This document shows positions 1-18,720 of a DNA stretch of 18,925 bases, one piece after another (the first letter of the stretch is position 1; each line of letters opens with the position of its first letter). Under the pieces are notes generated by a model that saw nothing but the letters and a program-made list of their open reading frames with translations, had not been told where the DNA came from and searched no databases. The stretch lies in the NCBI GenBank assembly GCA_007133745.1, contig SLMC01000317.1, positions 1-18,925 of the forward strand, read 5' to 3'. The DNA is from Kiritimatiellia bacterium (lineage in GTDB: Bacteria > Verrucomicrobiota > Kiritimatiellia > UBA8416 > SLMC01). The translations under genes were made by a program, and so were the position numbers.

Positions 1-37
1 CGTAATCCGGACGAGAAAGAGGGGATAAGAGATAGGG

Positions 38-61
38 GTGTACGAGTATGTGTACGAGTAC
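38..61. repeat. Tandem 12-mer direct repeat (GTGTACGAGTAY x2) flanked by GATAAGA copies
   Basis: Sequence shows gtgtacgagtat/gtgtacgagtac in tandem at 38-61. GATAAGA occurs on both sides, at ~25-31 and ~63-69. Confidence 0.5.
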
Positions 62-122
62 GGATAAGAAAACCTGCGGCATGGCAACGGTCTGTTTGGG
101 AACACCTTTTCGGATGGGGTCG

Positions 123-220
123 AGCTAGGGGCTAGGAGCTAGGGACTACGGACCAGGGACTAAGGACTAAAGACTAAGGACTAAGGACTAAGGACTAAGG
201 ACTAAGGACTACGAAGAACG
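123..220. repeat. Heptanucleotide tandem array, ~14 units with a core of seven near-perfect GACTAAG copies at 158-206
   Basis: Direct read gives agctagg ggctagg agctagg gactacg gaccagg gactaag gactaaa gactaag x5 gactacg aagaacg. The array ends ~25 bp before the ATG at 245. Confidence 0.9.
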
Positions 221-244
221 AAGGGTAGAGAAGGGAGGCTGGGC

Positions 245-1027
245 ATGAGACATGCAGTGGCGGGCGGAATGGTTGTTCTGGGTTTGTGGGCGGGCGGAGC
301 GATGCTTGCGTTGGGGCAGGAGGTGACTGGCAAGCAGATTGCCGAGCGCATTTACAATCGCGACGATGGCGCCGACAGCGTCTTCACGGTCAAGATGACG
401 CTGGTGGATCGGCGCGGACGCGAGCGCGAGCGGACGATGGTGACTTATTCCAAGGATGCGGAAGACGGTCTGGTCAATACGTTTATGCAGTTCGAGAGTC
501 CGGCGGACATCAAGGGGACGCGTTTTCTGACGCTGGAGCAACGGGGCGAGGATGATACGCAATATCTGTATATGCCCGCGCTCGGCCGTTCCCGTCGTAT
601 CGTAGGCGGGCAGCGCCAGCAAAGTTTCGTGAATACCGACTTCACGTTCGAGGATATGGAACGGCGCCATCCGGACGACGACCTTCACACGCTGAAGCGC
701 GAGGAAAAATTCAAGGAATGGGACTGCTATGTGATCGAGACCGTACCGGGCGAAGGCCGCGATTCCCAGTATTCCAAGTCTGTGGTTTGGATGGACAAGG
801 CCAGCGATGTGGTCGTCAAGGTGGATTTCTACGACCAGCGCGAGCGCCACGTCAAGCAGTTGCGGGTCAACAGGCTCGAGAAGAAGGACGGCATCTGGAC
901 CGCGATGGACACCGAAATGGAGAATTTGACGCGGGGGACCCGAACGCGTCTGGTGACGCTGGACGTGAAATACAACCAGGGGCTCGACGACAGCATGTTC
1001 ACGCTACGCCATCTCGAGGAAAAATGA
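245..1027 (+). CDS. LolA-like outer-membrane lipoprotein-sorting family protein (secreted)
   Basis: 260-aa ORF with an N-terminal signal peptide (MRHAVAGGMVVLGLWAGGAMLALG). A GGGAGG RBS lies 7 nt upstream. The YMPALGRSRRIV...NTDFTFEDM motif resembles the LolA-like (PF17131-type) family. The next gene encodes an OM beta-barrel, as in known pairs. Confidence 0.6.
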   Translation: MRHAVAGGMVVLGLWAGGAMLALGQEVTGKQIAERIYNRDDGADSVFTVKMTLVDRRGRERERTMVTYSKDAEDGLVNTFMQFESPADIKGTRFLTLEQRGEDDTQYLYMPALGRSRRIVGGQRQQSFVNTDFTFEDMERRHPDDDLHTLKREEKFKEWDCYVIETVPGEGRDSQYSKSVVWMDKASDVVVKVDFYDQRERHVKQLRVNRLEKKDGIWTAMDTEMENLTRGTRTRLVTLDVKYNQGLDDSMFTLRHLEEK

Positions 1028-1082
1028 GGCGTTGTGCGGCAGCGCCGATGCGGATCGCGCCTTAGCGTGTGTCTTTTTAAGA

Positions 1083-1140
1083 GAGAAACTGCGAAACACG
1101 GGCATGCTCGAAAGTTCTTTCTCCGCAGAACAATTTTTTT
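1083..1140 (+). terminator. Possible intrinsic terminator: nested hairpins followed by a T7 tract
   Basis: CTGCG...CGCAG encloses the perfect palindrome GAAAGttCTTTC (1111-1122), then caaTTTTTTT (1134-1140). The outer stem is weak. Confidence 0.3.
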
Positions 1141-1197
1141 CGCGCTTTTCGCGTGTTTCGTAGTTAAAAAAAAACACCAGTATCATCCCATAGCGTC

Positions 1198-1374
1198 TGG
1201 AATCATGGAATAGTGGAAGATTGGAGTGTTGGAAACTCTTGAAAGCCAATGGTCGGCCATTTGTCTTGCCTCGGACTTTCGCACAGTGCGTTGCATAATT
1301 TCCGAGAGAGGCAATCACGGTTTTCCGCTTGCTATCATTGTTCCAACATTCCCCCATTCCATTATTCCAATGGG
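1198..1374. repeat. Composite GGAAT-repeat inverted-repeat element, copy 1: left arm 1198-1236, right arm 1335-1374, central palindrome CGCACAGTGCG 1280-1290
   Basis: Left arm is TGGAATcaTGGAATagTGGAAgaTTGGAgtgTTGGAAAC. The right arm reverse complement is TTGGAATaaTGGAATgggGGAATgTTGGAAC. The arms are ~75% identical as inverted repeats. The palindrome sits exactly at the element centre. Confidence 0.75.
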
Positions 1375-2817
1375 ATGACGGTGAAGAAAAGAGGGGGGGG
1401 TCGCAAGGTGACGCAAAGGAGAAAAAACAGACGCGGTTTTCATGCGCCAACCCGGTCGTGGCGGTTGAGCGTTCTTCTTTTGGCATGGGCTTTGCCGGGT
1501 GCGGGGTGGGCATTCGATGTCAACGACATGGATTGGAGTCTCAAGGGAGATGCGTTCGTCAAGGCGACGCGCGATCTCAAGCGGGACAGCGATCTTGAGG
1601 CGCGTCAGGCGCTGGACAGTCGGGCCCGGCTCGAGAATACGCTGCGTTTCGGCGATAGCGGCGTTATGGCGGCGCTGCACGGAGAGGCGCGTTACGAAGC
1701 GTTCGACATGCGGGAAGGGGGGAACTGGGATTTTCTGCTTCGGGAAGCCTATGCCGAATTCCGGCGCGAGACCTTCAATATCGGCTTGGGCCGCCAGATC
1801 GTCACATGGGGAAAGCTGGACGATATGATGATTCTGGACCAGCTTTCGCCGCAGGATTTCCGCTGGTTCGCCTTTTACACCAAGCAGGAACGCAAAATCC
1901 CCGTGTTCATGCTCAAAACCGGGTATTACGGCCCGCGCTATTCGATCGAGGGGGTCTTGATTCCGGTTTTCACGCCGTCGGAGATCGACTATTTCGGGAC
2001 CGACTGGGCGCTGTTCGGGCGCATGAAGGAAACCGTGGCCGGCGGGCCCTGGCCGGAGCCGGTCAAACAGATGGTCGGGTCGATCGACATTGACGACCGT
2101 ACGGCGGCCAATACGGCGGAGGGCGGAGTTCGGCTGCGGGCGACGGAAGGCCGTACCGACTACGCGTTGTATTACCTGTCTTATTACAACCGCTTGCCGG
2201 CCTTGCGCGAATACACGCCCGCTGGGCGCTTGACCAAGCAGTTTCTTTTTATGCCCGGCCCGGATACGTTGAGCGCGCTGGCGGCGGCGAATCCGACGGC
2301 TCGGGACTTGACCCTGGATGCCGGATACGAACGCGTACACGCGGTGGGCGTGGATTTCGAAACCGTGATGGGGTCGTACGGGGTGCGTGGCGAATGCGGA
2401 TTCTTTTCCGATTTGCCGTTCACCCGCGCGAGCGATTTGGCCTATGTTCGCAAAAAGACCTTGGCGGCCGGAATCGGCGTCGATTACACGACCTTCAACA
2501 ACCTGTACTGGAACGTGCAGGTGGTGGCCAACAAGATTTTGAACACCGAGGATTTGGTCGAGACCGAGTCGTTTTCGCAGGAAATCGTTTTGAATGTCAA
2601 CAGGGACTTCATGATGGGCGATTTGACTTTGGACTTCAGCGGAATCTATCAGATCACGGAGGGCGGCTGGATGGCACGCCCGGAAATGGCTTACACGATG
2701 CGGGCGGGACTGGATCTGATTTGCGGCCTGCTCTTGCTCGGCGGCGACGAGACATCCATGTTCGGCCGTTACAAGCACAAGGACCTGATTTACACCCAGC
2801 TTCGGTACCGGTTCTGA
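1375..2817 (+). CDS. Outer-membrane beta-barrel protein, possibly DUF1302-like; partner of the upstream LolA-like protein
   Basis: Long ORF with a Sec signal (RSWRLSVLLLAWALPGAGWA). The C-terminal ...QLRYRF ends in Phe, typical of OM beta-barrels. The start is ambiguous: ATG 1375, or GTG 1408 with a strong GAGGGGGG RBS. Confidence 0.55.
   Translation: MTVKKRGGGRKVTQRRKNRRGFHAPTRSWRLSVLLLAWALPGAGWAFDVNDMDWSLKGDAFVKATRDLKRDSDLEARQALDSRARLENTLRFGDSGVMAALHGEARYEAFDMREGGNWDFLLREAYAEFRRETFNIGLGRQIVTWGKLDDMMILDQLSPQDFRWFAFYTKQERKIPVFMLKTGYYGPRYSIEGVLIPVFTPSEIDYFGTDWALFGRMKETVAGGPWPEPVKQMVGSIDIDDRTAANTAEGGVRLRATEGRTDYALYYLSYYNRLPALREYTPAGRLTKQFLFMPGPDTLSALAAANPTARDLTLDAGYERVHAVGVDFETVMGSYGVRGECGFFSDLPFTRASDLAYVRKKTLAAGIGVDYTTFNNLYWNVQVVANKILNTEDLVETESFSQEIVLNVNRDFMMGDLTLDFSGIYQITEGGWMARPEMAYTMRAGLDLICGLLLLGGDETSMFGRYKHKDLIYTQLRYRF
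1393..1400. repeat. Homopolymeric G8 tract at the start of the beta-barrel gene
   Basis: The sequence gaGGGGGGGGtc lies inside the ORF if ATG 1375 is the start. It is the RBS for the alternative GTG at 1408. Confidence 0.85.
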
Positions 2818-3593: not shown

Positions 3594-5113
3594 GCATGAC
3601 AGCGTTGCATTCGGCCATGACGGCGCTTGCGCAAGCCGGGGGCGGGCGGAGGGGCGGGGCGCCGGTGGGTCTTATTTTGGCCTTGATTCTCGGGGCGACG
3701 GCTATCGTGCTGATTATGAGTTTCGCCAAGCGCTATATGCGCTGTCCGTCGAACAAGATTCTTGTGATTTACGGCAAGACGGGGAGCGGGGTCGCCCGGT
3801 GCATTCACGGCGGCGCCGCCTTCGTGTGGCCTTTGTTTCAATCGTGCGCCTACCTTGATCTCGAGCCGTTCGTGGTGCCGATCGACTTGAAAAGCGCGCT
3901 GTCTTCCGAAAACATTCGCGTCACGGTTCCCACGACCGTGACCGCCGCCATTTCGACCGATCGGGGCGTCATGGAAAACGCGGCCATTCGTTTGCTCGGT
4001 CTCTCGGATCAGCAGATTCGCGATCAGGCGCAGGACATCATTCTCGGTCAGATGCGCGCGGTGATCGCCACGATGAAGATCGAGGAGATCAACCAGGACC
4101 GTCAGGCGTTTCTCTCTAAGGTCAACGAGGCGGTCTCGGGCGAGCTGGAAAAAATCGGGTTGCAATTGATCAACGTCAATATTCGCGATATCGAAGACGA
4201 TTCCGGTTACATTGTCGCCCTGGGTCGCCGTGCCGCCGCCGAGGCGATCAACCAGGCCAATGTCGATGTGGCCGAACAGGAGAAGATGGGGGAGACCGGC
4301 GTGGCCGCGCGACAGCGCGACCAGCGCACAGCGGTTGCGGCCTCCATGGCCGAAGCGGAGATTGGCGAAGCCGAGGCCGACCGCAATCGCCGTTCGCGCG
4401 CGTCGCAACTGAACGCCGAGGCGGTTCAGGCGGAAACGGAAGCCGACTCCCGCAAGGCGGAGTATCAGGCCAACCAGCGCGTGGCCGAGGAAGCGGCGCG
4501 CAATCGCGCGGAATCGGCCGCTCGCGACGCCGACGGCGCGATTCGCGTGGCTCAGGAAGTAGCCGAGGAAAAGGCCGAGGAGGCGCGTGCGGAACGCGAA
4601 AAGGCGCGCCTGAACGCCGAGGTCATCGTGCCGGCCAATATTGATCGGGATCGCGTGATTATTGCCGCCGACGCGGCTCGCGAGCAGGCGGTTCGGGTGG
4701 CCAAGGGCGAAGCCGAAGCGGCTCTGGCGAAGATGCGGGCGGAAGGCGAAGGCGTAAAGGCCATTCTTGCCGGCAAGGCGGCCGGCTATCAGGCGCTGGT
4801 GCAATCCTGCGCCACGGCGCAACAGGCGGCGTCCTTGCTGCTTATCGAAAAGCTGCAGGACATCGCCGAAATTCAGGCGCAAGCCATTCAGGATCTGCCT
4901 ATCGAAAAAATCGTCGTTTGGGACGGCGGCGGCCAGAATGGCGGCATTGCCGGTCTGGGCCAGCGACTCATGGGCGCTTTGCCGCCCATGCATGAACTGG
5001 CGCGTCAAATCGGATTGGAGCTGCCGGATTATCTCGGGAAGACCGCCGGAGTCGGCGTTGCCACCGCGCCGCCCGAGGCCAAGTCCGATGCGGCCGGGCA
5101 GGACTCGGCCTGA
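3590..5113 (+). CDS. Flotillin (SPFH/band-7 family, YqiK/FloT-like)
   Basis: TM helix, SPFH-like region (RVTVPTTVTAAISTD...IIL GQMRAVIATMKIEEINQDRQAF) and a long Ala/Glu-rich coiled coil. A GGAGG RBS precedes it, with ATGA overlap onto NfeD. This is the canonical nfeD-flotillin pairing. Confidence 0.8.
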   Translation: MSMTALHSAMTALAQAGGGRRGGAPVGLILALILGATAIVLIMSFAKRYMRCPSNKILVIYGKTGSGVARCIHGGAAFVWPLFQSCAYLDLEPFVVPIDLKSALSSENIRVTVPTTVTAAISTDRGVMENAAIRLLGLSDQQIRDQAQDIILGQMRAVIATMKIEEINQDRQAFLSKVNEAVSGELEKIGLQLINVNIRDIEDDSGYIVALGRRAAAEAINQANVDVAEQEKMGETGVAARQRDQRTAVAASMAEAEIGEAEADRNRRSRASQLNAEAVQAETEADSRKAEYQANQRVAEEAARNRAESAARDADGAIRVAQEVAEEKAEEARAEREKARLNAEVIVPANIDRDRVIIAADAAREQAVRVAKGEAEAALAKMRAEGEGVKAILAGKAAGYQALVQSCATAQQAASLLLIEKLQDIAEIQAQAIQDLPIEKIVVWDGGGQNGGIAGLGQRLMGALPPMHELARQIGLELPDYLGKTAGVGVATAPPEAKSDAAGQDSA

Positions 5114-5147
5114 TTATTGACGTCGCCCACTGAACAACGGATGAATC

Positions 5148-6278
5148 ATGGATTCTTTGGCTAAAGCGGAGCGGGTGGCCTATCTGGCCAATGTGCTTGC
5201 GATCGCCGCGCACGCAGGCGAAATAGGCCCTGAAGAAGCGCGCGTGATTGAACATGTCGCCGCCCGCGTGGCGGCGACCGATGCGGACATGGAGGCGGCT
5301 CGTCATTTGCAGGAAAGCGGGCATTACAAAATGGCGCTGATGCGCGATCAGCGCATCCGCATGGCGAACTTGGAAGACATGGTGCTGGTCGCGCTGGCCG
5401 ACGGAACGATTCGGGAAGCCGAATCGGCTCCAATCGAAAAATTGGCCGGAGCCATGCGCTACTCTCAGGTCGATATCGAAATGGCGGTTCGGCGAGCGAA
5501 GCAGCGTTTGCGAAAACTCGCAAACCAGCCGTCGCGGCCGACGGCGGCCCCGAAGACCGTTGCGACTCGGCGACGCCCGGCCCGAACCGTGTCGCGACCG
5601 GATCCGAAAAGCGGGCCGCCGCCTCCGTTGCCCGTGCCGCCCAATGCCGAGGAAGCGATCGATCAGCCGGAATCCGAATCCGAAGCCGAACCGGATGCGA
5701 AGATGGCAGAGAAACAGCATGCTCGGGAATCGTTGCCCGCCGAACCCGAAGCCGATTCGGTTTCGCAAGATGAAGAGGCGTTGATTCTGGCCGCGTGTAT
5801 CGAGGCGCGCAACGCCGCCGCGAATCCGGATGCCCATTGTTTCGGCGTGGGCGATGCCTCGCTCAATATTTGGGGTTGTTGCATGGCTCGCATGCCATGG
5901 GCCGCAGGCCAGAATTGGCTTTCTCTCGGAACGTTCCGCAGCGACAACGTTTTCGAGTTCGATCGCGACGCCATCCGCCGCGAGGTTGTTCAGGCCTTAC
6001 GGCCGGTCGCGAGTTGCCCCTGCCTGCAGGCCGAGACCGTCGGGAAGGCGATCGATTGCATGCCGTCCCGCGCCCGTGTCGGGCCGCGCTGGGTTCGTCG
6101 CCCCGCGAAGCCGGACGGCACAGGGGTTGTGCTGAACGTCCGCGAACGCGTTCACGGGTGCGAGGTATGCAGTCGGCGCAGGGTGGAGGGGCTGGACCCT
6201 GTCGGCGTTGGGGAGGCGCGCCGTATCGTCCGCGACGTCTGTCGCGCAGTCAATCGTCCGCCGCTCGCTTTTCCCTGA
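5148..6278 (+). CDS. TerB-like domain protein with a Pro-rich linker and a Cys-rich C-terminal domain
   Basis: The N-terminal ~125 aa resembles the TerB/DjlA-N fold (VLAIAAHAGEIGPEEARVIE...VLVALADGTIREAE). The acidic/Pro linker and the C-terminal Cys cluster (CC, C-P-C, H-G-C-E-V-C) are not recognised. Confidence 0.5.
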   Translation: MDSLAKAERVAYLANVLAIAAHAGEIGPEEARVIEHVAARVAATDADMEAARHLQESGHYKMALMRDQRIRMANLEDMVLVALADGTIREAESAPIEKLAGAMRYSQVDIEMAVRRAKQRLRKLANQPSRPTAAPKTVATRRRPARTVSRPDPKSGPPPPLPVPPNAEEAIDQPESESEAEPDAKMAEKQHARESLPAEPEADSVSQDEEALILAACIEARNAAANPDAHCFGVGDASLNIWGCCMARMPWAAGQNWLSLGTFRSDNVFEFDRDAIRREVVQALRPVASCPCLQAETVGKAIDCMPSRARVGPRWVRRPAKPDGTGVVLNVRERVHGCEVCSRRRVEGLDPVGVGEARRIVRDVCRAVNRPPLAFP

Positions 6279-6346
6279 GAAGCTCGCGCGGTCAGGGGGA
6301 CTGCCGGGAATGGCGCTTAGATTAGTTTCTGTTGCGGAAAGGCTGC

Positions 6347-6366
6347 GGACGACACGGAGGTCGTCC
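6347..6366. other. Perfect hairpin GGACGAC-acggag-GTCGTCC
   Basis: 7-bp perfect stem with a 6-nt loop in the TerB/phosphoesterase intergenic region. No T-tract follows. Confidence 0.6.
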
Positions 6367-6466
6367 CTCCATTGCAAAAACAAAGCGATTTCAAGGGGTT
6401 TGGAGGGTCGGGCTCCGTACCGACCGCTTCCCGCAACCGCAACAACGTAAGGGAACGAACACTTTT

Positions 6467-8188
6467 ATGCGATACGCGATCGTTTCAGACATTCATGCCA
6501 ACCGTCAGGCGTGGGAGGAAACGCTCAACGACATCCTGAAATGGAACGTGGACGCCACCATTTGCCTGGGAGACATTGTCGGCTACGGGCCCATGCCGGA
6601 ACCGGTTCTGGAAAGCGTCTGCGAATACGTGGACGATATCGTGATCGGGAATCACGATGCCGTCATAGGCGGTCGTTCTTCGCCGGAGCTTTTCGGCGCG
6701 CACGCCCTGAAGTCTCTGGAATGGACCCGGTCCCGACTGGACGACGCCTCCATACGGTTTCTGGGCGATTTGCCGTCCCTGATCGAGGGCGACGGATTCG
6801 CCTTGGCTCATGCCGAGGTGTTGGACCCCGAAATGTTCGGATATATCGAGAATCCGACCGACGCCCGCTTGAACTTCGAAAGCAACGCCTATCCGCTTAT
6901 CTTCGTAGGGCATACCCATTACCCGGAAATTTACGCGCTGGATACCGTCAGCAATGCCGTGCAGCGGATTCCGCCACAGGATTTCGCCATGGCGGACGAA
7001 CACCGCTATCTGGTCAATGTGGGGTCGGTGGGCGATCCGCGCGACGGAACGCGCGAAGCCAGTTACTGCATTTTCGACGATGAATCCCGTTCGATCGTCT
7101 TTCGCAAGCTGCTGTTCGATTTGGACGGCTACAGAGCCGACATGGCGGATCGCAAGGTCGATTACAAACCCTATTTCATCATGGCCGCCGCGCATCCCGG
7201 CGCGCGACCGCCTCCGAAAGACTGGGCCATGGAGATGCCGCCCCGGTCGCTCGATGAAGACAAAAAACCGGTCAAGATCATTCATGTTTCGCAATCGTCG
7301 GGCGGGATGAACGCGCGGCAGGAAGCCCAGGCCGAAGCGGAACGTTACAAGCGTCGGCAGGTGTCGGAAGCCCTGAAGCAGGCCAGAGAAACGGACGAGA
7401 CGCGGCGCCTGGCGCAGGCCGAGGCCGCGCGCGAAGCCTTGCGCAAGCGTCAATTGGCGATGGAAGCGGCCCGGCAAAAGAAGGAGGAAGAGCGGCGCAT
7501 AAGCGAAGAAGAGGCTCGCCGCAGAAACAGGGAACTCCTGCTGATTTCCAGGGAACGGGATGAAGAACGGCAGAGAATACAGGAAGCGCATGCCGAACGT
7601 CTGAGACAGGCTCTCGAAGAAAGAGCGGAGGCCGCTCGCAAGAGAGCGGAAGTTCTGCGCTGGAAGGCGGAACAGGAACGCCAGGAACGCGACAAACGCT
7701 TGCATCGGCGCAAGCTGGAACTGGCCCGCGCCGCCGAAGAACGGCGCAGGCTGCGCGAGGCCGAACGTGAAGCCGAAGCCGCCGAAATTCGCGAAAAACT
7801 GCGAAACAAAAAGAAGTTGGCCACCCAAATCGCGCCGGAAAGACGGACGAAAATGCCGGAGCCGTCAGCCGTTTCGGCGCCGCCGTCGGCTCGGCCTGTC
7901 GCGGCGCCTCCTTCGTTGCACGAGACGCGTGAAATTGTTTTCAAACCCGGAACATCGCCGCAAAAAACGGAGGCGCCGCAGCCCGGGGCGCCGGTCGACG
8001 ATTCGCCTCGTCCGCACGATGCGATCGACGCGATGCGAACGCTTAAGGATGCCGATCCCGAAGAGCGGCGCGCGGCCATTGCCCGGCTTGCCGCCGAAAA
8101 ACAGCGTCAGCGCCGCGAAGAAGACGCGGCTCGCAAGCAAAAGGCCCGCGAGGCCATCCGAAAAAAGCAGGCCGCCGCCCGCAAATAA
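6467..8188 (+). CDS. Calcineurin-like metallophosphoesterase fused to an ER/K-rich charged helical region and a Pro-rich tail
   Basis: Metallophosphoesterase motifs are present (DIHAN, GDIVGYGP, GNHD, GHTHY). About 190 aa of E/R/K/A-rich sequence follows, typical of a single alpha helix or coiled coil, then a P/A/S-rich tail. The start is taken at ATG 6467 (MRYAIVSDIHAN). Confidence 0.7.
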   Translation: MRYAIVSDIHANRQAWEETLNDILKWNVDATICLGDIVGYGPMPEPVLESVCEYVDDIVIGNHDAVIGGRSSPELFGAHALKSLEWTRSRLDDASIRFLGDLPSLIEGDGFALAHAEVLDPEMFGYIENPTDARLNFESNAYPLIFVGHTHYPEIYALDTVSNAVQRIPPQDFAMADEHRYLVNVGSVGDPRDGTREASYCIFDDESRSIVFRKLLFDLDGYRADMADRKVDYKPYFIMAAAHPGARPPPKDWAMEMPPRSLDEDKKPVKIIHVSQSSGGMNARQEAQAEAERYKRRQVSEALKQARETDETRRLAQAEAAREALRKRQLAMEAARQKKEEERRISEEEARRRNRELLLISRERDEERQRIQEAHAERLRQALEERAEAARKRAEVLRWKAEQERQERDKRLHRRKLELARAAEERRRLREAEREAEAAEIREKLRNKKKLATQIAPERRTKMPEPSAVSAPPSARPVAAPPSLHETREIVFKPGTSPQKTEAPQPGAPVDDSPRPHDAIDAMRTLKDADPEERRAAIARLAAEKQRQRREEDAARKQKAREAIRKKQAAARK

Positions 8189-8238
8189 TGAAAGAAGAGC
8201 TTGTGTTTCGAGAAAAACAGGCTAGCATGTCGGTTTTG

Positions 8239-8398
8239 CATGGAATGATGGAACGTTGGAATAATGACGGAACGGGAAATGGCCTCTCTCGGAAATCCAG
8301 CATCGCACGGTGCGAAAGGCAGGCGGAAGACAAAGAACCGACCACTGGCTGTCGAGGGCGTGCAACATTCCAATCCTTCGCTATTCCCAAATTCCATA
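8239..8398. repeat. Composite GGAAT-repeat inverted-repeat element, copy 2: left arm 8239-8282, right arm 8363-8398, near-central palindrome CGCACGGTGCG 8304-8314
   Basis: Left arm is ATGGAATgaTGGAACgTTGGAATaaTGAcGGAACgGGAAAtGG. The right arm reverse complement is TATGGAATtTGGGAATagcGAAGGATTGGAATG. It lies between the phosphoesterase stop and the 8439 gene start. Confidence 0.75.
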
Positions 8399-8438
8399 CG
8401 TCATTGGATGGCTGTGACGGCATAAAAGGGAGAGACCT

Positions 8439-10058
8439 ATGAACGACAAAGATGATTCGAACGATTTCATGAAAGTCCTTTCGGCGTTCCGGGATATCGA
8501 GGCGATGCTTCATGGAGAAGAAGAAACCGTTGCGCTTCCCGTTCGCGACCTGATCGACCTTTTCCCGGAAGACTATATTTCCATGGACGATCCTTCGGCT
8601 GTTCCCGAAGGCAAGGCGACGATTAAGATCGACAATCTGTTTTTCCAGTTGTCCAAGGGCAAGGTGGAGGTCCCTGTTTCCGCGCTGGCTATCGCCTTGC
8701 CGGCGCAATTCATCCGCCCTCAGGCGCTTGAAGACGAACACACCATGATTCGGCTTCCGTTGCAGGCGGTGGTCAAGGCCATTGATCCCGATGTGCTGAA
8801 AGGGAAAATGGCGCCCAAAACCACTCGGCACCAGGCCATGAACATTCCCGACCCTTTTGGTCCGAAATCCGAGCCGAAGCCGGAATCCGCTCCGGCCGTT
8901 CCCGTTCCCCCGGCAGAAGAGATCGCGCCATCGCCGCCGCCCGAGCCGCCTGTCGAAGAGGCGGAACCCGCGCAACCCGAGCGGGAACCGGAATCTGTTT
9001 CCGAACCGTCCCTCGCGCCTGAAGCGACATCGCTTCCCGAGCCGCCAGCGGAGCCGGAACCCGTCGAGGAGGCGGTTGCCGAGTCCGAACCTGTCGCTGC
9101 TGCCGAGCCGCCGCCCGAGCCGTCCGCGGAAGCCGTGACGCCTTCTCCGCTACAGCCGGAGGAGCCGCAGGAAGACGCCTTGGTTTCCGAGTCGGCGATT
9201 TCCGAACCTGCGGAATCCGATCGGGAACCTGAGTCTGCGGCCGAGCCGCCTTTCGAATCGAAACCGGCCGCGCCACCCGCCACGGTTTACGATTCCATTC
9301 GGTCTGTTTTTGCCAGGCCGAAAACCGCTGCGGAAGCGCTGCAAGAGTCCCCGTCCGAGCCGGAAACGCCCGAAGAAGCGTCGCCGGAAGCGCCGGAGCC
9401 CGAGCCGCTCGCATGCGACGAGCCAGACGACTTTGGCGGTGTCAATCTAAACACGGCAACCGTCGAACAATTGATGACTTTGGACGGGGTTACGGATCTT
9501 GTCGCGGAGACCGTTTTGCAATATCGGCGAGAGAATGGCGAATTCAAAAGCATCTTTGAACTGGGCAAGATTCCCCGTGTCGGCCGCAAGACGTTCAGGA
9601 AAATGACGGGCATGCCTTACAGCATGTCGCATCGTCATCGTCGTCTCAAACTGGCCGGCTTGCTGAACATGCCGCCCGAATCGATCGGGCGTTTGTCGGC
9701 CATTGCGCAGCGGTTGGCATCGCGTCCGGGCTTTTCGGGTTGCGTCGTATCCAATGCCGAGGGCTTGGTTCTGGCGGAACATGGCGCATCCGAATATGCG
9801 GAGAAACTTGGCGCGGTCATGCCTCGTCTTGCACGGCAAATCGGGGAGAACGTCGGGCTGCTTGAGATGGGCGCGGTCGAATCCGTGTCTATCTGTTTAA
9901 AGAACCGCATGTTCACGGTTGCCGTGTCGGGGGACATCTGCCTGACGGTAATGCACAAGCGCAACACCTTGACGCGCAGCCAGCTTGTGCTGGTTCGGAA
10001 AACGGCCGAAGAACTGGCCTGGCTGCTGAGTCATCGCGCCTATGTCGGGCGCGGATAG
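8439..10058 (+). CDS. Multidomain protein: unknown N-domain, long acidic Pro/Glu-rich disordered linker, ComEA-type helix-hairpin-helix, C-terminal Roadblock/LC7 (MglB-like) domain
   Basis: The HhH region is GVNLNTATVEQLMTLDGVTDLVAETVLQYRRENGEFKSIFELGKIPRVGRKTF. The C-terminal ~110 aa fit the Roadblock/LC7 pattern (GFSGCVVSNAEGLVLAEHG...MFTVAVSGDICLTVMHKRN). The RBS is AAGGGAGAG. Confidence 0.6.
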   Translation: MNDKDDSNDFMKVLSAFRDIEAMLHGEEETVALPVRDLIDLFPEDYISMDDPSAVPEGKATIKIDNLFFQLSKGKVEVPVSALAIALPAQFIRPQALEDEHTMIRLPLQAVVKAIDPDVLKGKMAPKTTRHQAMNIPDPFGPKSEPKPESAPAVPVPPAEEIAPSPPPEPPVEEAEPAQPEREPESVSEPSLAPEATSLPEPPAEPEPVEEAVAESEPVAAAEPPPEPSAEAVTPSPLQPEEPQEDALVSESAISEPAESDREPESAAEPPFESKPAAPPATVYDSIRSVFARPKTAAEALQESPSEPETPEEASPEAPEPEPLACDEPDDFGGVNLNTATVEQLMTLDGVTDLVAETVLQYRRENGEFKSIFELGKIPRVGRKTFRKMTGMPYSMSHRHRRLKLAGLLNMPPESIGRLSAIAQRLASRPGFSGCVVSNAEGLVLAEHGASEYAEKLGAVMPRLARQIGENVGLLEMGAVESVSICLKNRMFTVAVSGDICLTVMHKRNTLTRSQLVLVRKTAEELAWLLSHRAYVGRG

Positions 10059-10068
10059 GAGGCGATTC

Positions 10069-12021
10069 ATGCTCGATTTGGCCAAGTTCAAGCAGCATCT
10101 GGTGGGTTCCGGAGCTGTTGAAAAAGAACAGCTTGAACGGGCGCAGAAGCACGCGTTCGATCACGGCCTATCGTTGAGCGAGGCGTTGTTGGCTCTGAAC
10201 ATTGTCGGCAGCCGAAAGCTGGGCAAGTGTCTGTCCGAGATATACGGGCTGCCCTACGTCAGCCTTCAGAACCGTCCGCTGTCGCCCGAGGCCCAAACCA
10301 TGCTGTCGGCTCCGTGCGTTGTCCAATGGAAGGCGTTTCCCGTTCATTGCGAGCGCAAGGAGAACATTTTCACGTTGGCGGTTCACGATCCCGATCAGAT
10401 GGTTAAAATCGAGAAGGCGTTCCGGTTTCTTTTGCAACCGGTCGCGCTGGGGTTCGTGATCGTGTCGCGGCCGGAGCTGGACGAGGCGCTGGAAAAGCAT
10501 TACGGGACCGCCGTGGAGCGAATGAGGGCTGCCGACGGCAAGCCGCCGGTCGTCGCCCCGTCCGCCGGCAAAAAGAAGCTCAAGCTGAGCGGTTTGCATC
10601 GGGACGCTCCGTCATCCGCCGCCGTTCCTTCGGACGCCGCGTCTCTTTCCAAGACGGCGGACGCGTCCAAGCCCGATGCGAAGGCGTCGGCTTCGTCCGC
10701 AGCCGCCGCGCCGCGCCCGCTTTCCCGCTATCATCCCGCTGCCGCGCCCGCCCGAAGCGCTGCCGAGCCGCGCCCGTTGTCGTCGGCCGGCGCTGCGCCG
10801 CAGACCGATACGGCGGCGGACAAGCCGGCCGCGACACGCGATGTCGATGTTACGGATATGAGCCGGTCGCTGCTCAATTCCGTTGCCTTGCTGGCGCAAA
10901 CCCGGCTGGGCGGCGATTCCGTCAAAATCCTTCAAGCCAAAACCCGTGTCCGTTATTGCCGACTGCTGGCCGTGCGCTCGAACCTTGCGCCCGACTCCTG
11001 CGATGCCATTGCCATGGCCGCCTGGCTGTCCGTTCTGGACGCTCCCGGCGAGGTGGTTAAACAGCTCGTGACCCCCTATAATCTGGACGCTATTCTGCAA
11101 GCGGACGGCGATGCGCATGCCGCGTTGTTGCCGGAATCCAAAATTCTCGGTCTAGTTCGACGCTACCAGGATTTCAAGGCGAGCGATCCGGATGCGGCAC
11201 GCGACATCAACCGGGTTCGCGACCATTTGCGCGCGCACGAGGCGCCCGATCCCGAGCAGGACGCGTTCATGGAGACGTTTTTGCAGATCCTGATGGACGA
11301 AGAGTTTCTTTCCGAAATGGGCAAGGCCAGCGGGCGCATTCTGATCGTCGATCCTGTCGAGGCCGCTGGCGCGTCGCTGGCGCCGCCTCTGGCCGACGAC
11401 GGCTACGAGGTGGATGTGGTTCCCGACAGCGCTTCAGCCGAAGAACGCGTTTGGACCGAACAGCCCGATGCCGTTTTGGTGTCCATGGATTTGCCGCGAC
11501 AGAGCGGCCTGCGGTTCTGTCAAAAAATGAAACGGGACGAGGCGACGTCGGCAATGCCTCTGATCGCGCTTATTCCGAAGCCGGACGATCAGCTTGCCAC
11601 CGAATGCTTTCGCGCCGGGGTCGAGGACTGTTTCCCGAAACCGGTGGATTTGGAACGGCTTTTTATCAGACTGCATCGAATGATCAAGCCGCCAGCCGTC
11701 CCGGTTGCCGAAGCGGGCGTCAAAGGATCGCTGGCCGACATGAGTTTCACGGACATGATTCAGATTCTTTGCGCCGGCGGCAAAAGCATGGAGATTCTTC
11801 TGGTCAGGGAAGGCGTCAAGGGCTGCGTGCACGTTTCCGAGGGCAATGTCGTTCACGCCGAGGCGGGCGACAAAAAGGGCGAAGCGGCCTTTTACGACAT
11901 CATGCAATGGAAGGATGGCGACTTCACGACCCGGCCCCGAACGGAATTCCCGGAGCGGACCGTTCAAGGGTCGCTGATGGGCCTGCTTATGGAAGGCGCC
12001 CGGCTTTCCGACGAGTCGTAA
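10069..12021 (+). CDS. Signalling protein: GspE/PilB N-terminal (T2SSE_N, MshEN-like) domain, Ala/Pro/Ser linker, helical middle region, response-regulator receiver (REC) and C-terminal PATAN/DUF4388 domain
   Basis: The N-terminus matches T2SSE_N (LSLSEALLALNIVGSRKLGKCLSEIYGLPYVSL...TLAVHDPDQMV). REC is recognised at ILIVDPVE...DAVLVSMDLPRQSG...PLIALIPKPD with a phosphoacceptor-type Asp. DUF4388/PATAN is recognised at DMSFTDMIQILCAGGKSMEILLV...GEAAFYDIMQWKDGDF. A strong RBS TAGGAGG lies 7 nt before ATG 10069. Confidence 0.6.
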   Translation: MLDLAKFKQHLVGSGAVEKEQLERAQKHAFDHGLSLSEALLALNIVGSRKLGKCLSEIYGLPYVSLQNRPLSPEAQTMLSAPCVVQWKAFPVHCERKENIFTLAVHDPDQMVKIEKAFRFLLQPVALGFVIVSRPELDEALEKHYGTAVERMRAADGKPPVVAPSAGKKKLKLSGLHRDAPSSAAVPSDAASLSKTADASKPDAKASASSAAAAPRPLSRYHPAAAPARSAAEPRPLSSAGAAPQTDTAADKPAATRDVDVTDMSRSLLNSVALLAQTRLGGDSVKILQAKTRVRYCRLLAVRSNLAPDSCDAIAMAAWLSVLDAPGEVVKQLVTPYNLDAILQADGDAHAALLPESKILGLVRRYQDFKASDPDAARDINRVRDHLRAHEAPDPEQDAFMETFLQILMDEEFLSEMGKASGRILIVDPVEAAGASLAPPLADDGYEVDVVPDSASAEERVWTEQPDAVLVSMDLPRQSGLRFCQKMKRDEATSAMPLIALIPKPDDQLATECFRAGVEDCFPKPVDLERLFIRLHRMIKPPAVPVAEAGVKGSLADMSFTDMIQILCAGGKSMEILLVREGVKGCVHVSEGNVVHAEAGDKKGEAAFYDIMQWKDGDFTTRPRTEFPERTVQGSLMGLLMEGARLSDES

Positions 12022-12036
12022 GGCAAGCCCCGTGAA

Positions 12037-12062
12037 CGCCGATGTCCGCGTCGGCCTTTCTT
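12037..12062. terminator. Putative bidirectional intrinsic terminator between convergent genes
   Basis: GCCGA-tgtccgcg-TCGGC stem-loop followed by CTTTCTT. It lies between the stop at 12021 (+) and the stop at 12110 (-). Confidence 0.35.
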
Positions 12063-12109
12063 GCGGGGACTGCGATTCGGTGCGGCGAGGGTGACTTTCC
12101 CGTCCGGCG

Positions 12110-12565
12110 CTATGATTCCTGCCGTAATGCGCGCACTTGACGCAGGCACTCCGCATCGGCCTGATGGCGTGCGTCAGGGATCTGTTCCTTCACGGCGAGC
12201 AAACTCTCCAGGTCAATCCAGTTGGTTTCGACGCTTCCGTACCGACCGATATCCCGTTTGTTCCACGCCGTCTCGAAATCGAGGTGGCCAACAGATTGCA
12301 GGATGTCAATGCGGTTTGGCGGAAGGCCAATTTGCAGTATTTGTTCGGTCTTGCCCGGATCAAGAAGATAGGGGCATCCGAATTCTGCAAGCGCGTTGTT
12401 CGCTCGTGCGATGTTGTCGGCGGCGGGATCGATCCAGATGTCCATGTCTTTGGTGAAACGCGGCTTGGCATGGTAAACGAAGGCCATGCCGCCCACAATC
12501 AGGTAGCGGGCATTCTGGCGATGCAAGGCCGAAAGCATATCCTGGAAATCCGCGATACTGTCCAT
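12110..12565 (-). CDS. Nucleotidyltransferase-fold protein (MNT/AbiEii-like), the downstream member of a TA-like pair
   Basis: 151 aa with a GG...DxD-type signature: YLIVGGMAFVYHAKPRFTKDMDIWID. Its start ATG overlaps the upstream stop by 1 nt (TGATGG). A GGGAGGA RBS sits inside the end of the upstream gene. Confidence 0.5.
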   Translation of the reverse strand: MDSIADFQDMLSALHRQNARYLIVGGMAFVYHAKPRFTKDMDIWIDPAADNIARANNALAEFGCPYLLDPGKTEQILQIGLPPNRIDILQSVGHLDFETAWNKRDIGRYGSVETNWIDLESLLAVKEQIPDARHQADAECLRQVRALRQES

Positions 12566-12828
12566 CAGTCGTCCTCCCAATCGAAATCCGTCTTGCCGGC
12601 GTGAATCGCCTTGAGATCGTTGCGCAAGGCCGTCAGGGCGGAGAGCCGTTCCTGCGGCGTTCGGCTTTGCCAAAAACGCAAATCCCAATCGGTGGCTTCC
12701 TGATGGCTGTTCGCGACATGGGCAACCATTCGCCTGCGCCGTTCAAGGGCTTGAGGGGAAAGAGGGACCGTCTCGCTTGGCGCTGTCATCATGGCCTTTC
12801 GTTCGCGTGCGGATCGAGGATCGTCCAA
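12565..12828 (-). CDS. Small basic/acidic protein (75-87 aa), the upstream partner of the nucleotidyltransferase gene
   Basis: ORF translationally coupled to the downstream gene. Possible starts are 12828 or the internal MM at 12792/12789, the latter with a GAAAGG RBS. No recognisable domain, though a short R-x-H patch is present. Confidence 0.4.
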   Translation of the reverse strand: MDDPRSARERKAMMTAPSETVPLSPQALERRRRMVAHVANSHQEATDWDLRFWQSRTPQERLSALTALRNDLKAIHAGKTDFDWEDD

Positions 12829-13264
12829 CGCGTGGGTCCTTTGTCACGGCTGCCTTTACCTCACGCGGGCTGCGCTCGCATTCCAAATTTTAGATTTCAA
12901 ACTTCAAATCCAAATGATGCGACGCAGAAGCGCCGCATTACATGACGAAACAATCTAAGTAAAAGATACAACGGCGCAGAATACGCGTCAATGGAAAAGC
13001 CGTTCCATTTTGACCGCTCACGGTCAGCAGACGACAGGGAGGTTGTCCCTCCAGCATTGGGATGGACTGTTTTTGGGTTGCGGCTTTGCCGCGCGGCGGT
13101 CTTCATGGTCAGTTTTGTTTCTTTCATTTCCGGTTTGACTTTCTCTGCGGCCTGCGCTAGGGTGGCCGCTCTTTTTTCAGGAATCCGTCCCTGCCGCTGT
13201 CTGTTGCCGCGTGCGGGGCGGTCCAAAACATCACGAAGCCATACAACCAAACAAGGAGTTCCTT

Positions 13265-14215
13265 ATGATCGTATCGACCGATGCCCTGTTCAAGCATGCC
13301 TATAAAAATTACGCCGTCGGCGCCTACAACATCAACAATGCCGAGCAGATCATGGGTCTGTTCCGCGGGAATATGGACAGCAAGGCGCCGTTTATCGTTC
13401 AATTGTCCAAGGGCGCGCGGTCCTATACGGACAAGCGGCTGCTGGAAGCCATGATTCGGGCTGCCGACGAGATTTTCCCCGACGCCGTTTTCGCCGTGCA
13501 TCTGGATCACGGCGACGAGGCCGCCTGCATGGATTGCATCGAAAGCGGCTTCTATAGCTCGGTCATGATCGATGCCAGCGGCGAGGAGTTCGACGAGAAC
13601 ATCGCCATTACCAAGCGCGTTGTGGATGCCGCCCACAAGAAGAACGTTTCCGTCGAAGCCGAGCTGGGCAAATTGGGCGGGGTCGAGGAGCATGTGTCGG
13701 TGGACGAGGCCGACGCCAAGCTGACGGACCCGAAACAGGTGCAGGAATTCGTCGAGCGCAGCGGTTGCGATAGTCTGGCTTGCGCGATCGGCACGAGCCA
13801 TGGCGCCTACAAGTTCACGGGATCGCAAGGCCTGCATTTCAATGTGATCGAAGAGATTGTCAAGCTGCTGCCGGGCTTCCCGCTGGTCATGCACGGGTCC
13901 AGCTCGGTGCCGCAGGACGAAGTGGAGCGCATCAACGCGGCCGGCGGCGACCTGAAGGGGGCCAAGGGCGTGGACGAGGACCAGATCAGCAAGGCATCCA
14001 AGATGGGCGTGACCAAGGTCAACATCGACACCGACGGCCGTTTGGTTTGGTGCCGGGTCCACCGCGAGCTTTTCCTCGCGAAACCCGATGTCTTCGATCT
14101 GCGTCCGGCCGGCAAGATATTCATGGACGAGTACGCGAAGTACATCATGCACAAGAACGAGGTGCTCGGCAGCTCCGGGAAGCTGGACGACGTGCGCCAA
14201 GCCGTGCAAGGGTGA
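13265..14215 (+). CDS. fba: Fructose-bisphosphate aldolase, class II
   Basis: 316 aa containing HLDHG, GTSHGAYK and MHGSS motifs typical of class II FBA/tagatose-bisphosphate aldolases. An AAGGAG RBS precedes the ATG. Confidence 0.85.
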   Translation: MIVSTDALFKHAYKNYAVGAYNINNAEQIMGLFRGNMDSKAPFIVQLSKGARSYTDKRLLEAMIRAADEIFPDAVFAVHLDHGDEAACMDCIESGFYSSVMIDASGEEFDENIAITKRVVDAAHKKNVSVEAELGKLGGVEEHVSVDEADAKLTDPKQVQEFVERSGCDSLACAIGTSHGAYKFTGSQGLHFNVIEEIVKLLPGFPLVMHGSSSVPQDEVERINAAGGDLKGAKGVDEDQISKASKMGVTKVNIDTDGRLVWCRVHRELFLAKPDVFDLRPAGKIFMDEYAKYIMHKNEVLGSSGKLDDVRQAVQG

Positions 14216-14249
14216 TTTTTCCGAATCAATACAACAGGAGTGCACTATT

Positions 14250-17831: not shown

Positions 17832-17845
17832 CCCGGCAGGAGAAT

Positions 17846-18012: not shown

Positions 18013-18054
18013 TCTGTTGGACGACCGTAAACACAAACCGCGAAAGGGCCGGTT

Positions 18055-18681: not shown

Positions 18682-18720
18682 GCGCTGGCCGCGACAGCGT
18701 ACAAACTATGGAGAATGAAT

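What the first reader, a model, noticed from the sequence alone, without database searches (positions are those of the whole stretch)
123..220. Heptanucleotide (GACTAAG)n tandem array immediately upstream of the LolA-like gene: candidate phase-variation or regulatory tract
About 14 tandem 7-bp units, seven near-perfect, end 25 bp before the start codon of a secreted LolA-like protein. Repeats of 7 bp are prone to slipped-strand mispairing. Unit gain or loss would shift promoter-to-start geometry by non-integral helical turns, or change 5'UTR length. Each unit also carries an AAGGA motif. As RNA, that is a tandem array of GGA motifs, SD-like and CsrA/RsmA-like sites. The adjacent beta-barrel gene carries a separate G8 tract, so this cell-envelope locus may have two independent switches.
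Basis: partly seen in the sequence, partly recalled or inferred. Interest (0 to 1): 0.65.

Follow-up and report, generated by a model that had tools for sequence, protein, structure and literature searches.

The report
Length-variable 7-bp repeat before LolA-like gene
A real 7-base tandem repeat sits just upstream of a cell-envelope gene in an uncultured bacterium and differs in copy number (13, 12 or 8 units) between near-identical strains, but it is an ordinary slippage-prone microsatellite of a known kind, and nothing yet shows that it switches the gene.

Summary
Window 122-212 holds 13 in-register heptamers: five degenerate units, then a core of six GGACTAA plus one AGACTAA, then GGACTAC. 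The array ends 32 nt before the ATG (245) of a LolA_like gene that has a signal peptide. The array cannot be coding, because it has stops in all six frames.

Three independent assemblies of near-identical strains carry 13, 12 and 8 units. The only other indel between two of these strains lies at the G8 tract. That tract sits in the ribosome-binding region of the DUF1302 barrel gene, not in its coding sequence.

The array is specific to this lineage:
- It is absent from six related loci, where MMPL and LolA_like genes overlap, abut or have repeat-free spacers.
- It is rare among 75 metagenomic homologues.
- Copy number does not change the predicted accessibility of the Shine-Dalgarno/AUG region.
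- No promoter or Rfam family was found.
- (GGACTAA)n arrays occur in at least 120 loci across many phyla, in all orientations. In viral contigs they are no commoner than permuted units.

My verdict is that this is a young, hypervariable heptanucleotide simple-sequence repeat in a leader or spacer. It is a new member of a known kind (LSSR; positioned like the H. influenzae hmw repeats). A regulatory role is possible but undemonstrated, and an ON/OFF switch is unlikely.

The parts
122..156 (+). Degenerate 5' units of the array: GAGCTAG GGGCTAG GAGCTAG GGACTAC GGACCAG
   Evidence: Read in register. TRF finds period 7 and 14 over 122-204. These units are identical in all three alleles.
157..205 (+). 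Homogeneous core, GGACTAA x2, AGACTAA, GGACTAA x4. This is the part that varies in copy number.
   Evidence: L125 lacks one GGACTAA from the pure run after the AGACTAA interruption. L001 keeps only one GGACTAA.
206..212 (+). Terminal unit GGACTAC. It is duplicated in allele L001.
213..244 (+). Purine-rich leader in weak period-7 register (GAAGAAC GAAGGGT AGAGAAG GGAGGCT GGGC). It contains the Shine-Dalgarno GGGAGG at 233-238, 6 nt before the ATG.
   Evidence: It is invariant in the three alleles. It is weakly alignable with the last ~45 nt of the spacer in the 76%-identical relative L122.
245..1027 (+). LolA_like (PF17131, TP_0789-like) gene, 260 aa. The N-terminus MRHAVAGGMVVLGLWAGGAMLALGQE looks like a signal peptide.
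   Evidence: Pfam E=3.7e-61. Homologues of the same length share the same start. The signal peptide is read by eye and is an inference.
99..123 (+). GGAAC-N16-TCGA, an ECF-sigma-like -35/-10 candidate abutting the array. This is a lead only.
   Evidence: It is the only occurrence of this composite in the window. The motif was defined post hoc and is unvalidated. If it is real, the transcription start would fall in the first units and the whole array would be 5' UTR.
1393..1401 (+). G8 tract plus T in the ribosome-binding region of the DUF1302 gene. It is G7 in strain L125, a 2-nt indel.
   Evidence: In L125 the DUF1302 frame has a TGA just 5' of the tract, so the start is the GTG that corresponds to window 1408.
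1408..2817 (+). DUF1302 outer-membrane beta-barrel gene (probable GTG start).
   Evidence: Pfam PF06980 E=1.2e-15. The start is inferred from L125 and from the relative L122.

Best explanation
Window 122-212 is a young heptanucleotide simple-sequence repeat (a 'long SSR' in the sense of Mrazek 2007). It arose and is kept homogeneous by slipped-strand mispairing in the non-coding stretch upstream of a LolA_like gene. That gene belongs to an MMPL / LolA_like / DUF1302 envelope-transport cluster in an uncultured PVC-group bacterium, probably Kiritimatiellota-like.

Shown:
- The array is real, and it is non-coding because it has stops in all six frames.
- It gains and loses whole units. Three near-identical haplotypes carry 13, 12 and 8 units, and the single-unit change falls in the longest pure run.
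- It is absent from all relatives examined.

Inferred:
- It lies in the transcribed leader or intercistronic spacer. In relatives the MMPL gene directly precedes, and often overlaps, the LolA_like start.
- Unit changes alter leader length and the number of SD-like AAGGA sites, but leave the real Shine-Dalgarno, the ATG and their predicted accessibility untouched.
- Any effect on expression is therefore graded and probably small. I regard the tract as a hypervariable, largely neutral microsatellite rather than a dedicated switch.
For: Reality of the repeat: TRF score 112 and the shuffle test.

Alleles:
- Window has 13 units.
- L125 (ENA k141 assembly) has 12 units, with 7 SNPs in 1614 nt against the window.
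- L001 (Logan SRR7083934) has 8 units with a novel GGACTAC-GGACTAC junction, and 0 mismatches over window 112-1040 outside the array.
- Indels are confined to the two SSR tracts. The window-L125 comparison has 2 gaps, both at the tracts, and the 14.6-kb window-L143 comparison has none.

Lineage specificity:
- L122 (76% identical) has a 216-nt spacer with no array.
- In L126, L127 and L144 the MMPL stop overlaps or abuts the LolA_like start.
- L145 and L146 have a 213-nt spacer with no array.
- Only 2 of 75 metagenomic homologues have a period-7 array (TRF score >=40) within 400 nt upstream.

No structural switch: P(unpaired) of SD..AUG+15 is 0.49-0.52 for 0-20 units.

Generic nature of the class:
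- (GGACTAA)>=3 occurs in at least 120 genome loci across many phyla, in all gene contexts.
- Period 7 dominates the tandem repeats in those loci, with many different units.
- The same organism has other heptamer arrays with other units (L143).
- In viral contigs the unit (5 loci) is no commoner than permuted controls (4 and 6 loci).

Literature: heptanucleotide LSSRs are reported as the most abundant class in most genomes (Mrazek 2007, as summarised in PMC4679880).
Against: - Both indels that separate close strains hit exactly the two tracts placed before envelope genes. This is what contingency loci look like.
- Across the (GGACTAA)n class there is a modest bias for the sense orientation upstream of ORF starts: 35 against 16, p=0.011 at >=100 aa, fading to 22 against 15 at >=200 aa. 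Sense starts also cluster within 8 nt of the array end, 16 of 42 against 5 of 23. Some such arrays therefore do sit in translation-initiation regions.
- Neutrality is argued from absence of conservation and from predictions, not from expression data.
- The promoter and the extent of the transcript are unknown.
Confidence: 0.6

Rival explanations
1. Contingency locus acting on transcription or transcript level. The array would lie between a promoter and the start codon, as the 7-bp repeats lie upstream of H. influenzae hmw1A/hmw2A or the AGAT repeats lie in the M. catarrhalis uspA2 5' UTR. Stochastic unit gain or loss would then give heritable, reversible, graded or phase-variable expression of the LolA_like (and possibly DUF1302) envelope proteins. 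Together with the G tract at the barrel gene's ribosome-binding site, this would make two independent switches.
For: - Whole-unit length polymorphism among near-identical strains.
- The G tract varies too.
- Indels are confined to these tracts.
- The target genes are envelope genes.
- Position and copy number resemble the hmw repeats, which are 13-38 copies lying 69-106 bp upstream (PMC2651432).
- An ECF-like GGAAC-N16-TCGA motif abuts the array (post hoc).
Against: - No sigma-70-like promoter was found in 1-1500.
- The array is absent from all relatives, and SSRs are rare upstream of homologues.
- Variation is seen only between assemblies, not shown within a clone.
- SSR length variation is expected whether or not it has a function.
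- The same organism carries heptamer arrays in a convergent intergenic region, where no such switch is possible.
Confidence: 0.2
2. RNA-level leader element. Transcribed as (GGACUAA)n, the array would be a weakly structured, purine-rich run of SD-like AAGGA / GGA sites. It would act as a ribosome standby or enhancer platform, as an anti-SD decoy, or as a multivalent site for an RNA-binding protein such as CsrA, S1 or a Csp. Copy number would tune translation. This is analogous to the role proposed for TAACTGA repeats in Beggiatoaceae.
For: - Six AAGGA and 11 GGA motifs are present, in sense orientation to the gene.
- The array is about half unpaired in predictions.
- In the wider class, 16 of 42 sense-oriented arrays end within 8 nt of an ATG of a >=100-aa ORF, so the last AAGGA sits at Shine-Dalgarno distance.
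- MacGregor 2015 reports the same placement for TAACTGA repeats (PMC4679880).
Against: - Here the array ends 32 nt before the ATG, and the gene has its own GGGAGG Shine-Dalgarno.
- The orientation bias in the class is modest and loses significance with stricter ORF calls.
- The unit is not enriched over permuted controls in viral contigs.
- No csrA gene can be looked for on this contig.
- There is no Rfam match.
Confidence: 0.12
3. Assembly artefact. The copy-number differences would come from collapse or mis-joining of a tandem repeat by short-read assemblers, not from biology.
For: - Logan contigs are built with short k-mers. The pure run of about 41 nt exceeds k=31, so a cycle could be collapsed.
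- Contigs break near the region: L001 starts 10 nt before the array, and the window starts 121 nt before it.
Against: - Allele L001 contains junctions (GGACCAG-GGACTAA-GGACTAC-GGACTAC-GAAG) that do not exist in the 13-unit allele, so collapse cannot produce it.
- L125 carries a k141_ contig name, which I read as a MEGAHIT k=141 assembly. A 141-mer spans the whole 84-91-nt array.
- The differences are exact multiples of 7.
- The haplotypes also differ by SNPs elsewhere.
Confidence: 0.03

Closest known systems
Long simple sequence repeats (LSSR) with 5-11 nt units in prokaryotic genomes (Mrazek, Guo and Shah 2007, as summarised in PMC4679880)
   Same: Head-to-tail heptanucleotide units, longer than chance, in non-coding DNA, slippage-prone and sporadically distributed. 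Heptamers are reported as the most abundant class. In my 120 class loci, period 7 also dominates.
   Different: Nothing essential differs. The unit GGACTAA has not been described in the searched literature (0 papers), and the host is an uncultured PVC bacterium.
7-bp repeats upstream of hmw1A/hmw2A adhesin genes of non-typeable Haemophilus influenzae (Dawid et al. 1999, as described in PMC2651432)
   Same: A 7-bp unit with 13-38 copies, tens of bp upstream of a gene for a secreted or surface protein. Copy number differs between strains.
   Different: For hmw, copy number has been shown to modulate expression. Here no expression data exist, and the promoter is unknown. The array here lies 32 nt from the ATG, against 69-106 bp for hmw. 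The host is an environmental, non-pathogenic lineage.
TAACTGA heptamer direct repeats of marine Beggiatoaceae, Cyanobacteria and Bacteroidetes (MacGregor 2015, PMC4679880), and heptamer repeats near start codons in Nostoc PCC 7120 (bioRxiv 10.1101/2022.06.06.494920). Cyanobacterial STRR repeats are cited from my own knowledge.
   Same: Intergenic heptamer arrays, often in forward orientation just upstream of start codons. Indels between close strains come in 7-nt steps. Arrays are absent from close relatives that have the same gene neighbourhood.
   Different: - Those are dispersed families with tens to hundreds of sets of one unit per genome. Here only one GGACTAA array is visible in about 22 kb, plus two arrays of other units.
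- The window array does not overlap the ribosome-binding site.
- The unit is SD-like (AAGGA), unlike TAACTGA.
AGAT repeats in the uspA2 5' UTR and the poly-G tract upstream of uspA1 in Moraxella catarrhalis (cited in PMC4679880)
   Same: Tandem repeats or a G tract between promoter and start codon of surface-protein genes. The pairing of a multi-nucleotide repeat with a G tract resembles this locus.
   Different: In Moraxella these are experimentally proven to set expression level. Here both tracts are only shown to vary.

Membership tests
Simple sequence repeat / LSSR (heptanucleotide class) | Head-to-tail copies of a 1-11 nt unit, longer than expected by chance | tested here: met
   TRF period 7, 11 copies, score 112. 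The exact period-7 run is 33 nt against a shuffle maximum of 14.
Simple sequence repeat / LSSR (heptanucleotide class) | Copy number changes in whole units between closely related genomes | tested here: met
   13, 12 and 8 units in the window, L125 and L001. The flanks are identical.
Simple sequence repeat / LSSR (heptanucleotide class) | Non-coding location for a unit whose length is not a multiple of 3 | tested here: met
   The unit gives TAA in all three + frames and TAG in all three - frames. The array lies upstream of the CDS that starts at 245.
Phase-variation / contingency locus (SSR-controlled expression) | Hypermutable SSR placed in the promoter, 5' UTR or CDS of the controlled gene | tested here: inconclusive
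   The array lies 32 nt upstream of the ATG, but no promoter was located, and it is unknown whether the tract is transcribed.
Phase-variation / contingency locus (SSR-controlled expression) | High-frequency, reversible length change within a clonal population | not testable with these tools
   Only between-assembly differences are visible.
Phase-variation / contingency locus (SSR-controlled expression) | Length change alters expression of the gene | not testable with these tools
   This needs reporter or transcript data. The only proxy, predicted SD/AUG accessibility, does not change with copy number.
Phase-variation / contingency locus (SSR-controlled expression) | Associated gene encodes a surface or envelope function | tested here: met
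   LolA_like E=3.7e-61, followed by a DUF1302 barrel. MMPL transporter genes lie upstream in relatives.
Dispersed heptamer direct-repeat families (TAACTGA type, MacGregor 2015; cyanobacterial STRR) | Many sets of the same heptamer dispersed through the genome | tested here: inconclusive
   Only about 22 kb of this organism is available. It holds one GGACTAA array and two short arrays of other units in L143. The genome-wide count is unknown.
Dispersed heptamer direct-repeat families (TAACTGA type, MacGregor 2015; cyanobacterial STRR) | Forward orientation within a few nt of the start codon, overlapping the ribosome-binding site | tested here: not met
   The orientation is forward, but the array ends 32 nt before the ATG, and a separate GGGAGG Shine-Dalgarno follows it.
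CsrA/RsmA-bound leader | GGA motifs presented in hairpin loops, one overlapping the Shine-Dalgarno, and a csrA/rsmA gene in the genome | tested here: inconclusive
   Eleven GGA motifs are present, but predictions show only weak, non-specific pairing and no loop presentation. Whether csrA is present cannot be checked on this contig.
Any curated RNA family (Rfam 15) | Covariance-model match | tested here: not met
   No match at gathering score in the whole window. No match at E<=1 in 1-1450.

The most novel reading that the evidence does not exclude
The heptamer array before the LolA_like gene and the G tract in the ribosome-binding region of the adjacent DUF1302 barrel gene would be two true contingency loci. 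Together they would give a free-living, uncultured PVC bacterium stochastic, heritable variation in an outer-membrane lipid or lipoprotein transport system, for example to escape phages or predators that use the barrel. This would extend SSR-based phase variation from host-adapted pathogens to environmental communities. A wider version is that SD-like (GGACUAA)n arrays are copy-number-tunable translational leaders used across many phyla.
Probability: 0.15. Interest if true: 0.6.

Novelty: new member of a known kind. Interest (0 to 1): 0.3.

Why it matters
If the tract does tune expression, it would be a rare documented case of SSR-driven variation of an envelope transport operon in an environmental PVC bacterium, with natural alleles (8, 12 and 13 units) already in hand for testing. 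As it stands, the value is mostly practical. The array is a strain-resolving marker. It also shows that, in this population, indels concentrate at two simple tracts placed before envelope genes. Finally, it adds one more unit (GGACTAA) and one more phylum to the still unexplained abundance of period-7 repeats in bacterial intergenic DNA.

Tried and rejected
- Known RNA family: Rfam gave nothing at gathering score for the whole window, and nothing at E<=1 for 1-1450.
- Sigma-70 promoter flanking or inside the array: none in 1-1500. An ECF-like GGAAC-N16-TCGA at 99-123 is a post hoc lead only.
- Copy-number-dependent RNA switch: SD/AUG accessibility stays flat from 0 to 20 units.
- Conserved element of the operon: absent in L122, L126, L127, L144, L145 and L146, and rare in 75 metagenomic homologues.
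- GGACTAA as a special, horizontally shared unit: permuted units are equally frequent in viral contigs, 5 against 4 and 6 loci. Many other heptamers accompany it in the class loci.
- More alleles from JGI metagenomes: a 24-nt 3'-flank pattern gave 0 hits.
- Literature on the unit: 0 papers contain two tandem units. Two earlier literature searches were uninformative because the terms were too short.
- Coding or leader-peptide reading: excluded by stops in all six frames.
- Fold-back assembly artefact for the long palindrome upstream (L125 1-212): rejected, because the arms differ at 8 positions.
- Strand-specific RNA selection on that palindrome: not seen, with 4 against 3 G-U pairs on the two strands.

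Full report
**1. Observation**

The window is a whole 18,925-nt contig with 60% G+C. TRF finds one strong tandem array at 134-211: period 7, 11 copies, 87% matches, score 112.

Read in register from 122, the array has 13 units:
- GAGCTAG GGGCTAG GAGCTAG GGACTAC GGACCAG
- GGACTAA GGACTAA AGACTAA GGACTAA GGACTAA GGACTAA GGACTAA
- GGACTAC

A purine-rich tail in weak period-7 register follows (GAAGAAC GAAGGGT AGAGAAG GGAGGCT). It contains a GGGAGG Shine-Dalgarno at 233-238, and the ATG is at 245.

The longest exact period-7 run is 33 nt, against at most 14 in 200 dinucleotide-preserving shuffles. The unit carries TAA on the + strand and TAG on the - strand, so three units close all six frames and the array cannot be coding.

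The downstream ORF (245-1027, 260 aa) matches PF17131 LolA_like at E=3.7e-61 and has a signal-peptide-like N-terminus. The next gene matches DUF1302.

AAGGA occurs six times, only at core junctions, not in every unit. The G8 tract is not inside the barrel coding sequence (section 2).

**2. The array varies between near-identical strains**

An exact-protein look-up and the 90% identity cluster of the LolA_like protein gave two more assemblies of the same species.
- L001 is a Logan contig from SRR7083934. It is identical to window 112-1040 apart from the array. It reads ...GGACCAG GGACTAA GGACTAC GGACTAC GAAGAAC, which is 8 units.
- L125 is ENA ERZ27301262, contig k141_1409154. It differs from the window by 7 substitutions in 1614 nt and carries 12 units. 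One GGACTAA is missing from the pure run after the AGACTAA interruption.

The L001 allele contains junctions that do not exist in the 13-unit allele, so repeat collapse cannot explain it. L125 carries a k141_ contig name, which I read as a MEGAHIT k=141 assembly whose k-mers span the whole array.

Between the window and L125 there are only two indels in 1.6 kb:
- the 7-nt unit in the array;
- a 2-nt indel at the G tract, G8+T at 1393-1401 against G7.

A third assembly, L143, covers window 4250-18895. It has 15 SNPs and no indel.

In L125 the DUF1302 reading frame has a TGA immediately 5' of the G tract. The start must therefore be the GTG that corresponds to window 1408. This places the G run 6-7 nt upstream, in the ribosome-binding region.

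**3. Context**

The best named hits of the window's pyruvate:ferredoxin oxidoreductase, at about 76% identity, are Kiritimatiellae, Lentisphaerae and Verrucomicrobiota MAGs. The organism is therefore an uncultured member of the PVC group.

Relatives of the LolA_like protein lie in a TetR / MMPL (RND-like) / LolA_like / DUF1302 cluster.
- In L126, L127 and L144 (58-64% identity) the MMPL stop overlaps or abuts the LolA_like start.
- In L145 and L146 (57%) and in L122 (76%) there is a spacer of about 215 nt without any heptamer array.
- Only the last ~45 nt before the ATG align weakly between L122 and the window.

In the window's species the upstream non-coding stretch is at least 435 nt. L125 extends 198 nt beyond window position 1 and shows an imperfect palindrome with a 100-bp stem.

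The LolA_like/DUF1302 spacer has also grown, from 4-14 nt in relatives to 380 nt here. It contains a copy of a dispersed palindromic element.

The array is thus one of several recent repeat insertions or expansions in the spacers of this cluster. It is not a conserved control element.

Among 80 metagenomic homologous loci, 75 have at least 150 nt of upstream sequence. Only two of these (L190, L192) have a period-7 array with TRF score >=40 within 400 nt upstream, and five have a G or C run of >=7 near the gene ends.

**4. The wider class**

The hits span Cyanobacteria, Acidobacteriota, Chloroflexota (Thermomicrobiales), Planctomycetota, Verrucomicrobiota, Bacteroidota, Proteobacteria and others. 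Some genomes carry 5-8 or more arrays.

Orientation and placement relative to genes:
- Arrays occur in every gene context. My crude calls give 32 sense co-directional, 20 antisense, 16 convergent and 9 divergent.
- After removing orthologous duplicates, a sense-strand ORF start within 60 nt downstream is commoner than an antisense one: 35 against 16, p=0.011. The bias fades with stricter ORF length, to 22 against 15 at >=200 aa.
- 16 of 42 sense starts lie within 8 nt of the array end, against 5 of 23 antisense starts. In those cases the last AAGGA sits at Shine-Dalgarno distance.

This placement matches what MacGregor (2015, PMC4679880) described for TAACTGA repeats.

The unit itself does not look special:
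- In viral contigs (GGACTAA)3 is found in 5 loci, against 4 and 6 for two permuted units.
- In the 120 loci, period 7 dominates all tandem repeats, and 143 of the 252 period-7 rows have other units.
- The window's own organism has two further short heptamer arrays of other units. They form a terminator-like hairpin between convergent genes (L143 15930-16045).

All of this fits the reported predominance of heptanucleotide LSSRs and a general period-7 slippage propensity (Mrazek 2007, as summarised).

**5. Mechanism**

Shown:
- The tract is real, non-coding, variable in whole units and lineage-specific.

Inferred:
- It is transcribed as leader or intercistronic RNA, given the operon structure in relatives and its sense orientation 20 nt upstream of the Shine-Dalgarno.

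Tested by prediction:
- From 0 to 20 units, the unpaired probability of SD..AUG+15 stays at 0.49-0.52, and that of the Shine-Dalgarno at 0.77-0.81. No copy-number-dependent structure switch is expected.
- No sigma-70-like promoter and no Rfam family was found.
- A GGAAC-N16-TCGA motif abutting the array (99-123) is the only such composite in the window. It was defined post hoc.

I therefore commit to a hypervariable microsatellite that is largely neutral or at most weakly tuning (confidence 0.6). The rivals are:
- an hmw-like contingency locus (0.2);
- an RNA-level SD-like, standby or CsrA platform (0.12);
- an assembly artefact (0.03).

**6. Comparison and novelty**

The feature meets every defining criterion of an SSR/LSSR. 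It resembles the H. influenzae hmw 7-bp repeats in unit length, copy number and position (PMC2651432). It resembles the TAACTGA and Nostoc heptamer repeats in class behaviour.

The criteria that define phase variation could not be tested here. These are within-clone switching and an effect on expression. The TAACTGA-type criterion of overlapping the ribosome-binding site is not met.

No paper in the searched library contains two tandem GGACTAA units. A new unit in a new host is still a new member of a known kind.

I score interest at 0.3. The confirmation of natural alleles is a useful positive result, and the locus is directly testable. A specialist would not be surprised, and no function is shown.

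Noticed in passing
window 1393-1401 (and L125 1584-1590): The G8+T tract is G7 in a near-identical strain, a 2-nt indel. It lies 6-7 nt upstream of the probable GTG start (1408) of the DUF1302 barrel gene, so it is in the ribosome-binding region and not in the CDS. In the window the ORF only appears to extend upstream to ATG 1249 because of this indel.
   Followed up: yes
window 1184-1352, 8242-8410, about 17840-18015: A dispersed palindromic element of about 170-190 nt has three copies in 18.9 kb, all in intergenic spacers. Its termini are GGAAT-rich inverted repeats (TGGAATCATGGAATAGTGGAAGATTGGA... / ...TTCCAACATTCCATCATTCCAT). It folds into a long hairpin (-73 kcal/mol, z=-4.6). There is no Rfam match. 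It could be MITE-like or an unknown structured RNA.
   Followed up: partly
L125 1-212 (its right arm ends at window 1-14): An imperfect palindrome with a 100-bp stem (8 differences between the arms, RNA MFE about -177 kcal/mol on either strand) lies about 107 nt upstream of the array. The MAG contig (the window) starts inside its right arm. The element carries the motif GTGTACGAGTA(G/T), which recurs as the 12-nt tandem at window 38-60.
   Followed up: partly
window 1028-1407 and window 1-244: Both spacers of the MMPL / LolA_like / DUF1302 cluster are greatly expanded in this species (at least 435 nt and 380 nt). In relatives the genes overlap or lie 2-14 nt apart, or have spacers of about 215 nt. 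A weak terminator-like hairpin follows the LolA_like stop (1056-1069), so the cluster may no longer be a single operon here.
   Followed up: partly
L001 895-983 (window 1041-1127): The strain with the 8-unit allele is identical to the window through the whole LolA_like CDS. It then diverges abruptly after the stop codon, with 10 mismatches and 3 indels in about 87 nt. This suggests recombination or a different spacer variant.
   Followed up: no
L143 15930-16045 (same organism, about 1.3 kb beyond the window's 3' end): Two short heptamer arrays (AGTGACC AGTCATC AGTAATC AGTGACC ... and its inverted counterpart ACTGATT ACTGATC ACCGATC ACTGGCC) form a hairpin followed by T7 between convergent genes. 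This looks like an intrinsic-terminator-like structure built from heptamer repeats.
   Followed up: partly
L002-L121 (genome-contig hits): (GGACTAA)n arrays occur in at least 120 loci across very distant phyla. In about 30 cases a flanking ORF ends inside the array, so the array supplies the stop codon. In Thermomicrobiales and some others a GGACTAA array is followed by an inverted TTAGTCC array (L021, L049, L074, L089). In one Thermoanaerobaculia MAG (SMAG_U14434, at least 8 arrays) several arrays are preceded by CCTCCTAA.
   Followed up: partly
L192 2817-2980: A low-GC homologous locus (44% identical LolA_like) independently carries two mutually inverted heptamer arrays (TAAGCTG x4.6 and AAAGCTT x5.9) upstream of its LolA_like gene. 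The second array ends 21 nt before the ATG.
   Followed up: partly
window 99-123: GGAAC-N16-TCGA, an ECF-sigma-like -35/-10 pair, directly abuts the array. It is the only such composite in the window. The motif was chosen post hoc and is unvalidated.
   Followed up: partly
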